A DNA stretch of 64,000 bases from Escherichia coli (lineage in GTDB: Bacteria; Pseudomonadota; Gammaproteobacteria; Enterobacterales; Enterobacteriaceae), in the NCBI RefSeq assembly GCF_002854065.1, contig NZ_CP024147.1. One strand, given 5' to 3'. Position 1 is the first letter of the stretch; every line of letters begins with the position of its first letter. The position numbers were made by a program. Positions 3,001 to 6,000 of the stretch are shown here, in pieces.

Positions 3001-6000
3001 CTACGGCGCGGATATTACCGTACTTAAAGATCCTGCCAACCATTCACCACTGATCGTCCTCGATCATTAAAAGCAACAGGAGTACCGCACTGGTACTCCT
3101 GCGAATAAATAACTATACAGATTAGCTAATTGAAACGCCTTTCACCCCTGCCATACCTTTTAATAATCGCAACAGATCTTCTATCGACGTTGTGGCATGA
3201 AGCTGGATATCAATGGCGACCACTTCATGATCTTCATTTTCCTGCAACGAAACTAAATCAGTTTTTATTTTTTGCTGCTTAAACCAGTCGAGCATTGATA
3301 CCGTATTACCGTTCACTAGTGTCAGCTGTAAATGGTAATTTTTGTTCATCAGGCGGAAGGTTAATTGATGGAAGACTTCCAGCACCAGCAAGGTCATCAC
3401 TGAACCATAAATACCCAGTTCGTACATACCACTGCCAATAACCATACCAATGGCGGCGGTCACCCAGATATCCGCTGCAGTCGTCAGACCTACAATATTT
3501 TGGTTACGAACGAGAATGTTACCTGCACCGATAAACCCGACGCCCGTCACCACCTGAGCAGCAATACGGCTGGGGTCCAGTCCGACGTGATCTAAAGACA
3601 GCACGTCAGCAAAACCATATTTCGAAACAATCATAAACAGGGCGCTTCCCATGCCAATTAATACATGTGTGCGTAACCCTGCTCCTTTGCCGCGTATTTG
3701 CCTTTCCATGCCAATAGCGCCACAGGCAATTGCCGCGAGTATAAGACGTATAATAAATTCTGCTGTCATATAAAAATGCAAAAAGGAGCAGCAAGATGGC
3801 TCAACTTGCTACTCCTTTTTACTTGTACCTCATTAATTCGGCAAGTCATTAGATGCTTGATTTTTGAAGGTATACAAATTTTTCTGCGGGTTTTTCTTAC
3901 AGTATTCGATCACTTTAGGAATTTGAGTGAGATCGGTTTCATTTAAAGTAACGGTATCGCCACCTTTATATACTGTTTCTTCATGCAGCATCCACCATGC
4001 AACCGGGGTCATTGCTTTTGGATTCAGATCAATAAATTCCTGGCAGGTCATATCTTTAGCGGATTCATTGGCTGCCAGCGCAGATTGTGCGTTCACCAGT
4101 GACAAAGCCGCTACAGCGCCCATAAAAATAAACGCTTTACGGAGAGATGAAATATTCATTTTGTAACCCATTCAATATAGAGATTATATATGAACAGGAG
4201 GAATAGCTGCTTTTAAAGAAGATATTCCGGCCTGTTCAATATGCAAGGAAGTACGATGTAACGCATTCCCGGAATTACATATCTTTCTTAATTTTGTCCC
4301 ATTCGCCTTTAACTTTATCTTTAAAGTTGGCTTGTTTATCCTGAGTACAAGCCTGAACGATAGCTGGGGTTACGGTTGCAATACCCTGAACATCTAAAAC
4401 CGCATCTTCTGGTTTATCTTTGTTGTTCAGCGCTTCAGCAAAACCAACTGCAGTTGGCTGGAAGGATTCGTCCACAGCCAGGAAATCTTCACAGGTCCAG
4501 GAGTTGACCGGTTTTTTGTTATCAGCTGCTTTTTGCGCATCCGCTGCATTGCTCACAACTGGCAGAAGAAGCAGACCACCAAGAATAACGCCTAATACTT
4601 TTTTCATCGTAATATCCTCAACTATAAAGTGAAAGAGCCGTCACGAATCAATTTCGACACTGAGGTTATAACCTGGTTTTCTGTATATGTCATGTTGATG
4701 GAAAATATCAAAATCAGATATTTTTATTTCAATACAATGAGTTACAGATGCATCAGATACTGCAATTAGGAAATTTTTATTAAATCGACTGCATTCTTAG
4801 ACGCGTTTTTGGCATAGATTGATAGCAGGGGATTTTCTTCTTAATTTTATAGGGTGGTTCTATGTTATATATAGATAAGGCAACAATTTTGAAGTTTGAT
4901 CTGGAGATGCTTAAAAAACATCGCAGAGCAATCCAGTTTATTGCCGTGCTGCTGTTTATCGTCGGGTTGCTGTGTATCAGTTTCCCGTTCGTCTCTGGCG
5001 ATATTTTAAGCACAGTAGTGGGTGCATTATTAATCTGCTCGGGTATTGCGCTTATTGTCGGGTTATTCAGCAACCGCAGTCATAATTTCTGGCCGGTATT
5101 ATCCGGTTTCCTCGTCGCAGTCGCCTATTTATTGATCGGCTATTTCTTCATCCGCGCACCGGAGCTGGGCATTTTTGCCATTGCGGCATTTATTGCCGGT
5201 TTGTTCTGTGTTGCAGGGGTTATTCGCCTGATGAGTTGGTATCGTCAGCGTTCAATGAAAGGCAGCTGGCTACAGCTCGTTATTGGTGTGCTGGATATCG
5301 TCATTGCCTGGATATTCCTTGGTGCAACGCCGATGGTGTCTGTAACGCTGGTTTCCACACTGGTGGGAATTGAACTGATATTTAGCGCCGCCAGCCTGTT
5401 CAGCTTCGCCAGTTTGTTCGTTAAGCAGCAATAATTATCCCGGTTGTCACCCGGATCATAGTCACTTGATGTGACTATGATCCGATTAATACTCTCTCCG
5501 CTACGCGGAGTTGTAGATCAATTGCGCACTATCATTGAAATAATTACCTGCTAGTGATTATTTCAACCTACTGAATTTCATCTAATTTTTTTCACTCCAT
5601 GGCAAATTAGCCATTTCAAACATTATCATGGCTGATATTTTCCGTAGTCAGGTTTAATGTTTTAAAAGTGCTGTGGGAAAGTGAACAAAGAGTTCCGTAA
5701 GCGTTGATGCTATGGGCGGTTAAATAAGTAATCCGGGTTCATTTTTTTGCAACTGGCGTTGATTACATTGCATAAATATCCGTGTCTCCAGACGCTATAT
5801 AAAAACCTGAAGACATGAATGAGTTATTTACTCAGGTAATTTCAATGCGTTAAAAGAAAGCTGGCAATCCAATTGCCAGCTTAAGTCGAAACAAGGAGAC
5901 TCGATATTTAAATCGGATTACATTATAACTTTAGTAATATTCTTCAGAGATCACAAACTGGTTATTGATAACTTATTCTTGGGCAGTAATCCGCAAACGT

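What the first reader, a model, noticed from the sequence alone, without database searches (positions are those of the whole stretch)
5453..5483. Perfect 13-bp palindrome immediately downstream of hdeD without a terminator U-tract
ggatcatagtcac-ttgat-gtgactatgatcc forms a perfect 13-bp stem with a 5-nt loop starting 19 nt after the hdeD stop. Neither strand has the U-run expected of an intrinsic terminator, so it could instead be an RNA-processing or stability element, or a dimeric protein-binding site at the start of the long gadE regulatory region. It does not resemble the GC-rich REP consensus.
Basis: seen in the sequence. Interest (0 to 1): 0.25.

Follow-up and report, generated by a model that had tools for sequence, protein, structure and literature searches.

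The report
Hairpin capping the hdeD mRNA
The perfect hairpin just after the E. coli acid-resistance gene hdeD sits 4 nt before the mapped end of the hdeD messenger RNA and most likely shields that end from degradation after Rho-dependent termination, which makes it an ordinary example of a known class rather than a new regulatory site.

Summary
The palindrome is real and slightly longer than reported. It has a perfect 14-bp stem (5452-5465 / 5471-5484), a 5-nt loop and no U-tract on either strand, and it is longer than any stem in 100 shuffles of the window. It occurs once per E. coli genome, is never on phages or true plasmids, and is not REP-like.

Two published 3'-end maps of E. coli K-12 place an RNA 3' end on the hdeD strand at window 5488, 4 nt after the stem. 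A published bicyclomycin experiment calls a Rho termination region 112 nt further downstream (window 5600). The ~115 nt between them are C-rich and G-poor (top 0.4% of the window), and this holds in all nine sequences examined (five E. coli-type, four other Escherichia lineages).

The stem arms are invariant across E. coli lineages whose loop and flanks differ. Other Escherichia species keep the stem through double compensatory changes (GGAT/ATCC to GCCT/AGGC). No GadE/GadW/GadX ChIP-exo site overlaps it.

Best reading: this is the protective 3' stem-loop of a Rho-terminated hdeD transcript, the class described by Dar and Sorek (2018). The 3' end is shown by published data. Rho dependence is supported, with a caveat. 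Exonuclease trimming is inferred. It is a new member of a known kind and of low interest.

The parts
4862..5434 (+). hdeD coding sequence (190 aa), the gene whose transcript the hairpin ends
   Evidence: ORF list. Annotated as hdeD in RefSeq E. coli genomes at the homologous place.
5435..5488 (+). hdeD 3' UTR (54 nt), from the stop codon to the mapped steady-state 3' end
   Evidence: The published 3' end at MG1655 3657621 (+) converts to window 5488. The offset of 3652133 was checked on the arrS terminator.
5452..5484 (+). Stem-loop: 14-bp perfect stem (5452-5465 / 5471-5484), loop TTGAT 5466-5470, no U-tract
   Evidence: for the structure. Conservation and covariation.
5488..5488 (+). Mapped RNA 3' end, 4 nt downstream of the stem (…GAUCCG-AUUA-3')
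   Evidence: Adams et al. 2021 Supplementary file 1, sheet M63 0.4: 3657621 +, 1150 reads. TRS Supplementary Data 2: peak 3657621, range 3657617-3657627, 'Primary hdeD', three libraries.
5485..5600 (+). C-rich, G-poor tract immediately downstream of the hairpin (candidate Rho utilisation region)
   Evidence: C/G = 1.86 over 5485-5600. 78-nt windows reach 18 C / 7 G, the top 0.4% of all windows on both strands. C>G over the first 120 nt in all nine sequences examined (the window, four other E. coli-type sequences and four other Escherichia lineages), then a switch to G>C.
5600..5600 (+). Published 'Rho termination region' coordinate (MG1655 3657733 +)
   Evidence: Adams et al. 2021 Supplementary file 2: -BCM upstream/downstream 101/28, +BCM 251/475, Rho score 6.83, significance 2.0e-20.

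Best explanation
The hairpin is the 3'-terminal protective stem-loop of the monocistronic hdeD mRNA.

Proposed mechanism: RNA polymerase transcribes past the hdeD stop and through the palindrome into the untranslated start of the hdeD-gadE spacer. Rho loads on the C-rich, G-poor RNA just downstream of the hairpin (about 5485-5600) and terminates transcription diffusely about 100 nt or more further on. 3'-to-5' exonucleases (PNPase, RNase II) then trim the tail back until the -25 kcal/mol hairpin stops them. This leaves a precise 3' end 4 nt after the stem (window 5488) and stabilises hdeD mRNA.

A by-product is that hdeD transcription is kept out of the gadE promoter region.

Status of each step:
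- Shown here: the hairpin itself, its non-random nature, its conservation and its compensatory evolution.
- Shown by published data: the 3' end position.
- Supported by published data with a caveat: Rho dependence.
- Inferred from the family model: exonuclease trimming and protection.
For: 1. A + strand RNA 3' end lies at MG1655 3657621, which is window 5488, 4 nt after the stem. It appears in Term-seq of M63-grown cells. TRS calls the same nucleotide as the 'Primary' hdeD terminus in three libraries. By library count these are not the Adams sets, which have two libraries each. Adams labelled the end 'orphan' only because it lies 54 nt from the stop and their cut-off is 50.
2. There is no U-tract, and the terminator scan did not call it.
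3. A Rho termination region is called 112 nt downstream, with Rho score 6.83 and p = 2e-20.
4. A C>G tract lies directly downstream. It is in the top 0.4% of the window and is present in all nine sequences examined, including four non-coli Escherichia lineages, despite about 50% sequence divergence in the latter.
5. The stem is under constraint. Arm differences between the window and phylogroup B2 are 0/26, against 28/160 in the rest of the spacer (p = 0.016) and 17/53 locally (p = 0.0008). Against E. albertii they are 5/26 versus 71/144 (p = 0.005).
6. Pairing is maintained by changes on both sides at 4 of 15 pairs (G-C to C-G, A-U to C-G, C-G to U-A). Overall 91.3% of cells are paired, against 21-44% when the partner is slid, and 0/500 shuffles reach the observed covariation score.
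7. The loop sequence is free to vary (TTGAT, TTAAT, ATTAA, TCATA, TTGTG, GCACA).
8. All these features are the ones Dar and Sorek 2018 report for Rho-dependent transcripts.
Against: - The Rho call uses 800-nt windows, and the downstream window contains the gadE promoters P3-P1. Bicyclomycin could raise the downstream signal by de-repressing this H-NS-silenced region rather than by read-through of hdeD transcripts. Read numbers are also small (28 to 475).
- The Term-seq peak is weak (1150 reads, against about 10^6 for ArrS). It is listed only for M63, not for LB OD 0.4 or 2.0.
- No exonuclease-mutant data were available for this locus.
- G·U versus A·C substitutions do not favour either strand: three cells each way. 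Strand assignment therefore rests on the 3'-end maps alone.
- The strict sequence invariance of the 13-bp arms within E. coli goes beyond what pairing alone requires.
Confidence: 0.72

Rival explanations
1. The hairpin is a non-canonical intrinsic terminator. It causes RNA polymerase to release the transcript itself, perhaps helped by NusA or NusG, without a U-tract, and the 3' end at 5488 is the primary termination product.
For: The 3' end is precise and lies right after a very stable hairpin. The tail begins AUUA, which is weakly U-containing.
Against: Only 3 U fall in the first 8 tail nucleotides, and the scan rule is not met. The end lies 4 nt after the stem, whereas intrinsic terminators typically release at about 7-9 nt, inside the U-tract (established knowledge). 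A bicyclomycin-sensitive region is called just downstream. A conserved C>G tract follows the hairpin, which an intrinsic terminator would not need.
Confidence: 0.1
2. The palindrome is a double-stranded DNA operator for a dimeric regulator (or a boundary element for H-NS) acting on the far upstream part of the gadE control region, at -780 to -748 from the gadE ATG.
For: The 13-bp arms are sequence-invariant in E. coli lineages whose loop and flanks differ. The published '798-bp gadE promoter' includes this stretch, and ArcA-P shifts the P3 fragment that contains it.
Against: GadE, GadW and GadX ChIP-exo sites are at least 95 bp away. The YdeO box is ATTTCA repeats near the start sites. Half-sites of 13-15 bp are far longer than typical operators. 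In other Escherichia both arms changed together at two adjacent positions, which pairing explains directly but a protein site would need co-evolution to explain. Arm mismatches that are tolerated are the wobble-type transitions expected of RNA or single-strand pairing. The element tracks the end of hdeD, not gadE: a 16-nt insertion upstream and about 50% divergence downstream leave it in place.
Confidence: 0.05
3. The functional RNA is on the minus strand. The hairpin would end or stabilise an antisense transcript running from the gadE upstream region towards hdeD.
For: The palindrome folds equally well on the minus strand. In E. albertii, E. whittamii and strain E1V33 the one imperfect pair is G·U on the minus strand but A·C on the plus strand.
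Against: No minus-strand 3' end near 3657585-3657621 is listed in any of the three Term-seq conditions. The nearest is ArrS at 3657984/5. In strain E69 and in IAI39 the wobble pairs favour the plus strand instead. There is no U-tract and no C>G tract on the minus-strand side.
Confidence: 0.03
4. The palindrome has no selected function. It persists because DNA-level hairpin or cruciform processes (template switching, quasipalindrome correction) keep the arms matched. The RNA 3' end there is a passive consequence.
For: One loop variant (ATTAA) is the exact reverse complement of another (TTAAT), as expected from DNA-level flipping between the arms. Correction mechanisms would also produce matched double changes.
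Against: Arm positions diverge much less than neighbouring spacer positions between lineages (p = 0.0008 to 0.016), which correction alone does not explain. The element has kept its position after hdeD across the genus, together with a conserved C>G tract. Passive or not, the hairpin does define the transcript end.
Confidence: 0.05
5. The hairpin is an RNase III (double-strand-specific) processing site in a longer hdeD-gadE read-through transcript.
For: It is a perfect duplex. RNase III is already implicated in RNA processing at this island (GadY, ArrS; from my own knowledge).
Against: The stem is 14-15 bp, well below the roughly two helical turns RNase III normally needs (established knowledge). 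The mapped end lies 4 nt outside the stem, not within it. The literature search for hdeD with RNase III found nothing relevant.
Confidence: 0.03

Closest known systems
Protective 3' stem-loops of Rho-dependent transcripts (Dar and Sorek 2018, Nucleic Acids Res 46:6797; PMC6061677)
   Same: A stable stem-loop lies immediately upstream of a precise steady-state 3' end. There is no U-tract after it and no A-tract before it. C>G usage follows downstream. A bicyclomycin-sensitive region lies downstream. The gene is lowly expressed.
   Different: Exonuclease dependence has not been shown for this locus. The stem is at the long, perfect end of the range (14-15 bp). Its arm sequence is unusually invariant within E. 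coli.
REP/BIME elements acting as 3' mRNA stabilisers and marking Rho-dependent ends
   Same: An extragenic palindromic hairpin that blocks 3' exonucleases and lies upstream of the real Rho termination zone.
   Different: It is single-copy, 43% G+C in the stem, and has no similarity to the GCCGGATG-type REP consensus. A true REP-like palindrome is present elsewhere in the window, at 24106-24136.
Intrinsic (Rho-independent) terminators
   Same: A hairpin follows a stop codon, the RNA 3' end is just downstream, and the folding energy is comparable.
   Different: There is no U-tract. The end is 4 nt after the stem. The terminator scan does not call it, whereas it does call the nearby ArrS terminator at 5882-5858 on the - strand.
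The + strand reading of the ArrS terminator hairpin in the gadE 5' UTR (window 5858-5882)
   Same: A second hairpin in the same spacer has a + strand 3' end mapped just after it (3658019/20, window about 5886) and no U-tract on that strand.
   Different: That hairpin is a true intrinsic terminator for the opposite strand (ArrS), and it lies inside a 5' UTR, not at a gene end.

Membership tests
Protective 3' stem-loop of a Rho-dependent transcript (Dar and Sorek 2018 class) | A precise steady-state RNA 3' end immediately downstream of an energetically stable stem-loop | tested here: met
   Published maps put the end at window 5488, 4 nt after a -25 kcal/mol, 14-bp stem.
Protective 3' stem-loop of a Rho-dependent transcript (Dar and Sorek 2018 class) | No uridine-rich tract after the stem and no A-tract before it | tested here: met
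   The tail is AUUAAUAC and the upstream flank is GUUGUCACC. The terminator scan does not call it.
Protective 3' stem-loop of a Rho-dependent transcript (Dar and Sorek 2018 class) | Bicyclomycin-dependent read-through downstream of the 3' end (Rho dependence) | tested here: met
   Adams et al. 2021 Supplementary file 2 lists a Rho termination region at 3657733 (+), 112 nt downstream, with Rho score 6.83 and p = 2e-20. Caveat: the 800-nt downstream window includes the gadE promoters, so indirect de-repression is not excluded.
Protective 3' stem-loop of a Rho-dependent transcript (Dar and Sorek 2018 class) | Cytosine-over-guanosine enrichment downstream of the stem-loop (rut-like) | tested here: met
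   C/G is 1.86 over 5485-5600, with a peak of 2.57 in 78 nt (top 0.4% of the window). It is conserved in all nine sequences examined, four of them from non-coli Escherichia lineages.
Protective 3' stem-loop of a Rho-dependent transcript (Dar and Sorek 2018 class) | A longer 3' tail appears when PNPase or RNase II is removed (exonuclease trimming) | not testable with these tools
   The supplementary tables of Dar and Sorek 2018 are not held as text. No other exonuclease-mutant data were reachable.
Intrinsic terminator | G+C-rich hairpin followed directly by a run of U, with the 3' end inside that run | tested here: not met
   3 U in the first 8 tail nt, stem 6/14 G-C pairs, end at +4.
REP / BIME repeat | Many copies per genome sharing a G+C-rich consensus | tested here: not met
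   Exactly one place per genome in 3935 + 1308 E. coli genomes. No further copy in the window.
Described RNA family (Rfam 15) | Match to a curated covariance model | tested here: not met
   An E-value scan of 3000-9000 on both strands gives no hit at 5435-5520. The only real hit is ES205 at 6877-6948.
Palindromic operator of a known acid-resistance regulator | Overlap with a mapped binding site | tested here: not met
   GadE/GadW/GadX ChIP-exo intervals are 3655735-3655770, 3655819-3655843 and 3656193-3656227 (U00096.2). The hairpin is at 3655608-3655640. The YdeO box motif is absent from the arms. Other regulators (ArcA, EvgA, H-NS) could not be checked at base resolution.

The most novel reading that the evidence does not exclude
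The hairpin is more than a passive exonuclease block. On this reading its 13-bp arms, invariant across at least 4,700 E. coli genomes although pairing alone would allow change, are read sequence-specifically by a protein or RNA partner. That partner would set how much GadE-activated hdeD transcription escapes Rho and runs into the gadE 'sensory integration' region. This would give a conditional insulator, or a positive-feedback valve, between hdeD and gadE.
Probability: 0.06. Interest if true: 0.45.

Novelty: new member of a known kind. Interest (0 to 1): 0.12.

Why it matters
The main value is for annotation and experimental design.
- It fixes the 3' boundary of the hdeD transcription unit (3' UTR of 54 nt) and explains a Term-seq peak that one study filed as 'orphan'.
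- The first ~170 bp of what the literature calls the '798-bp gadE promoter' are in fact the hdeD 3' UTR, its protective hairpin and a probable Rho loading and termination zone.
- Reporter constructs that start at -798 carry these elements, and constructs truncated there do not. This could affect read-through from upstream vector or chromosomal transcription.
- It is also a clean, conserved example for studying how U-less hairpins define the ends of Rho-terminated mRNAs.
- It does not open a new question.

Tried and rejected
- Repeat family or mobile element: rejected. There is one copy per genome, none in phages, and the 'plasmid' hits are mislabelled chromosomes.
- Rfam family: no hit.
- Intrinsic terminator: the scan does not call it.
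- The second small hairpin, CTCCGC-TAC-GCGGAG at 5496-5510, as a possible weak terminator: rejected as a conserved part. K-12 and all other lineages lack the pairing (GCAGTG, ACAGCG and others).
- Strand assignment from G·U versus A·C substitutions: uninformative. Three cells favour each strand, and folding energies favour the minus strand in three species and the plus strand in E69.
- Dam methylation of the two GATC sites at the stem base: rejected as the conserved feature, because other Escherichia have GCCTC/GAGGC there.
- Literature search for the sequence string itself: no paper contains it.
- hdeD with bicyclomycin: no paper.
- hdeD with ProQ, RNase III or PNPase: nothing relevant.
- Supplementary tables of Dar and Sorek 2018 and of Nadiras et al. 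2018 are not held. The TERMITe supplements do not list the site.
- The Kluyvera cryocrescens hdeD homologue (57% identity) has an unrelated 11-bp U-less hairpin after its stop, but between convergent genes. It is analogous, not homologous, and was not used as evidence.
- One malformed alignment call and three rejected search or find calls gave no data.
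Full report
**Context.** The window is the E. coli acid fitness island. It carries hdeB (3833-4171, -), hdeA (4275-4607, -), hdeD (4862-5434, +), gadE (ATG at 6232, +) and mdtE (7098, +). RefSeq annotation of homologous stretches agrees. The finding lies at the start of the 797-bp hdeD-gadE spacer.

**Observation.** The palindrome is present as described, but the stem is 14 bp, not 13. The arms are CGGATCATAGTCAC (5452-5465) and GTGACTATGATCCG (5471-5484), fully complementary, with loop TTGAT. The 13-bp core begins 19 nt after the hdeD stop.
- The hairpin alone folds at -25 kcal/mol. In 96-nt contexts it gives z = -5.5 against dinucleotide shuffles on both strands.
- In 100 Markov shuffles of the whole window, the longest perfect stem with a loop of 10 nt or less was 12 bp. 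The real window contains only one other perfect stem of 13 bp or more.
- No T-run follows on either strand. The terminator scan, which does pick up the ArrS terminator at 5882-5858 (-), does not call this hairpin.

**Copies elsewhere.**
- No related copy exists in the window beyond chance.
- A 45-nt query finds exactly one chromosomal place in 3935 of 5426 complete E. coli genomes.
- The phylogroup-B2 version of the same 45 nt finds one place in a further 1308 genomes. The surrounding 501 bp are present in 5412 of 5426 genomes.
- There are no phage hits. The three 'plasmid' hits are 4.8-4.9 Mb records, which are chromosomes.
- It is therefore a single-copy, locus-specific element, not a REP-type repeat or a mobile-element end. 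Rfam has no model for it.

**Conservation and covariation.**
- Phylogroup B2/F strains (Nissle, CFT073, IAI39) differ from the window at 28 of 160 spacer positions outside the arms, and at 17 of 53 within the nearest 79 nt. They differ at 0 of 26 arm positions (Fisher p = 0.016 and 0.0008).
- The loop changes (TTGAT to ATTAA). The closing pair C5452-G5484 becomes T-A, and one more C-G pair is added, giving a 15-bp stem.
- A scan of one genome per species with HdeD found the locus in E. albertii, E. whittamii, and Escherichia spp. E1V33, E69 and MOD1-EC7003.
- All of these keep a hairpin at the same place after hdeD, despite a 16-nt insertion between stop codon and stem and about 50% divergence of the rest of the spacer.
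- In four of these lineages (E. albertii, E. whittamii, E1V33 and E69) GGAT...ATCC is replaced by GCCT...AGGC. That is two adjacent pairs changed on both sides (G-C to C-G and A-T to C-G) with no unpaired intermediates. MOD1-EC7003 keeps the E. coli GGAT...ATCC arms.
- On an alignment of 13 distinct variants, 91.3% of cells pair, against 21-44% when the partner is slid by 1-3 columns. Four of 15 pairs show changes on both sides, and 0 of 500 shuffles reach the observed covariation score or paired fraction. The number of independent events is small.
- Against E. albertii the arms differ at 5 of 26 positions (four of them the compensatory ones), versus 71 of 144 elsewhere (p = 0.005).
- The element is therefore selected as a base-paired structure with a free loop.
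- Wobble-type substitutions do not identify the strand. E. albertii, E. whittamii and E1V33 have a pair that is G·U on the minus strand and A·C on the plus strand. E69 and IAI39 have pairs that are G·U on the plus strand only.

**Transcript ends.**
- Adams et al. 2021 (eLife 10:e62438, PMC7815308), Supplementary file 1, sheet 'M63 0.4', lists a Term-seq 3' end at MG1655 3657621 (+). It has an average of 1150 reads, class 'orphan', and flanking sequence ...GTGACTATGATCCGATTA|ATACTC.
- I converted coordinates with an offset of 3652133. I checked it on the ArrS terminator: 3657985 (-) maps to window 5852, the last T of the TCTTTT run after the stem at 5882-5858.
- The 3' end is therefore window 5488, 4 nt after the last stem base.
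- It was labelled 'orphan' only because that study calls an end 'primary' within 50 bp of a gene, and this one is 54 nt from the stop.
- The TRS study (Nat Commun 14:7843, PMC10687069), Supplementary Data 2, lists a 3' terminus at 3657617-3657627 with peak 3657621 (+). It is classed 'Primary, hdeD', with p-values of 4e-59, 3e-42 and 3e-76 in three libraries.
- The Adams data sets re-analysed in that paper have two libraries each, so this entry comes from one of the three-library data sets from other experiments. Independence is my inference from the library count.
- No minus-strand 3' end is listed near the hairpin in any condition.

**Rho.**
- Adams et al., Supplementary file 2 (DirectRNA-seq with and without bicyclomycin, LB OD 0.5), lists a Rho termination region at 3657733 (+), which is window 5600, 112 nt beyond the 3' end.
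- Counts upstream/downstream are 101/28 without the drug and 251/475 with it, giving a Rho score of 6.83 and significance 2.0e-20.
- Between the hairpin and that coordinate the + strand is C-rich and G-poor. C/G is 1.86 over 5485-5600 and reaches 18/7 in a 78-nt window, the top 0.4% of all windows of the 64 kb on both strands.
- The bias is present in all nine sequences examined (C/G 1.5-3.2 over the first 120 nt), four of them from non-coli Escherichia lineages, and flips to G>C at about +120 in every one.
- Caveat: the 800-nt downstream window used for the Rho score contains the gadE promoters (P3 start at -566, window 5666). Bicyclomycin-induced de-repression of this H-NS-silenced region could contribute to the score.

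**Comparison with the known class.** Dar and Sorek 2018 (PMC6061677) showed the following for Rho-dependent E. coli transcripts:
- They have precise steady-state 3' ends immediately downstream of stable stem-loops that lack a U-tract.
- C-over-G enrichment follows downstream.
- Termination occurs further downstream, and PNPase and RNase II trim back to the stem-loop.
- Only 24% of such stem-loops are REP elements.

Every feature of that class that I could test is met here. Exonuclease dependence could not be tested. Features of intrinsic terminators (U-tract, end within it) and of REP elements (multicopy consensus) were tested and are not met.

**The DNA-operator alternative.**
- GadE, GadW and GadX ChIP-exo intervals in the spacer (Seo et al. 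2015, PMC4918353; U00096.2 coordinates 3655735-3655770, 3655819-3655843, 3656193-3656227) do not overlap the hairpin (3655608-3655640 after a -1977 conversion). The nearest is 95 bp away.
- The YdeO box (ATTTCA inverted repeats within 131 bp of start sites) is a different motif.
- The literature treats the full 798 bp as the gadE promoter, and ArcA-P shifts the P3 fragment that includes this stretch, but no site is mapped to the palindrome.
- No searched paper contains the sequence.
- Paired double changes in both arms, a free loop, and tracking of the hdeD end rather than the gadE promoters all fit RNA pairing better than a protein site.

**Conclusion.** The hairpin is best explained as the protective 3' stem-loop of a Rho-terminated hdeD mRNA (confidence about 0.7).
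- Shown: the structure, its non-randomness, its constraint and covariation, and, from published maps, the 3' end 4 nt downstream.
- Supported with a caveat: Rho dependence.
- Inferred: exonucleolytic trimming and stabilisation, and insulation of the gadE control region from hdeD transcription.
- It is a new, well-conserved member of a known kind and of low general interest. Its practical consequence is that the first ~170 bp of the '798-bp gadE promoter' belong functionally to hdeD.

Noticed in passing
window 5466-5470 (loop); L001, L024, L008, L009: There are three loop variants in E. coli: TTGAT (most), TTAAT (AST215, MOD1-EC7003, SCPM) and ATTAA (B2/F). ATTAA is the exact reverse complement of TTAAT. 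This suggests a DNA-level flip of the loop between the inverted arms rather than three substitutions.
   Followed up: partly
window 5496-5510: A second small hairpin, CTCCGC-TAC-GCGGAG, follows the main one in this strain only. K-12 (GCAGTG) and all other lineages lack the pairing, so it is not a conserved part of the element.
   Followed up: yes
window 5858-5882 (- strand terminator), 5852 and about 5886: The ArrS antisense sRNA terminator is called on the - strand, and its published 3' end (3657984/5) maps to 5851/5852. The same hairpin read on the + strand has a published 3' end just after it (3658019/20, 'gadE 5' UTR') without a U-tract. This is a second U-less hairpin-defined end in the same spacer.
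   Followed up: partly
window 6877-6948 (+): Rfam ES205 sRNA matches at 105 bits, immediately downstream of gadE. TRS lists a 3' end at 3659080 (about window 6947) assigned to gadE/gadF, so this is the GadF 3'-UTR sRNA.
   Followed up: partly
window 4993 (+), inside hdeD: Published Term-seq (M63) lists an hdeD-internal 3' end at 3657126, 131 nt into the ORF, with no strong hairpin before it. It may be a decay intermediate; hdeD mRNA is a CyaR/RprA target (PMC5861431).
   Followed up: no
window 24106-24136: The only other perfect stem of 13 bp or more in the window is TAATTGCCGGATGTC-A-GACATCCGGCAATTA (15 bp). It lies between convergent ORFs (22636-23958 + and 24140-26212 -). It carries the GCCGGATG REP-type core, and another CATCCGGC copy sits at 24060.
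   Followed up: partly
L013 (NZ_JAUFQN010000010.1, 'Flavobacterium paronense' CECT 8460, 8.6-kb contig): This contig encodes HdeD at 98% identity and carries the E. coli hairpin and spacer almost unchanged. It is almost certainly E. coli contamination in that assembly.
   Followed up: no
L022 (E. coli SCU-316): In this strain hdeD is annotated as a frameshifted pseudogene. The base of the hairpin is also eroded by a small deletion (CACTGATC instead of CACCCGGATC), which leaves a 12-bp stem. This is compatible with relaxed constraint once hdeD is lost.
   Followed up: no
L015 3582-3607 (Kluyvera cryocrescens): The 57%-identical hdeD homologue is followed, 15 nt after its stop, by an unrelated perfect hairpin (ACGATCTACCC-GAGC-GGGTAGATCGT, -23 kcal/mol context fold), also without a clear U-tract. 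It lies in a 56-nt gap before a convergent 176-aa ORF.
   Followed up: partly
L010, L011, L012, L014 around 3570-3590: Non-coli Escherichia (E. albertii, E. whittamii, E1V33, E69) carry about 16 extra nucleotides between the hdeD stop and the hairpin. The distance from the stop codon is therefore not conserved, while the hairpin is.
   Followed up: no
plasmid collection hits H83-H85: Three PLSDB 'plasmid' records of 4.8-4.9 Mb (NZ_CP141089.1, NZ_CP134663.1, NZ_OL790696.1) are evidently E. coli chromosomes filed as plasmids.
   Followed up: no
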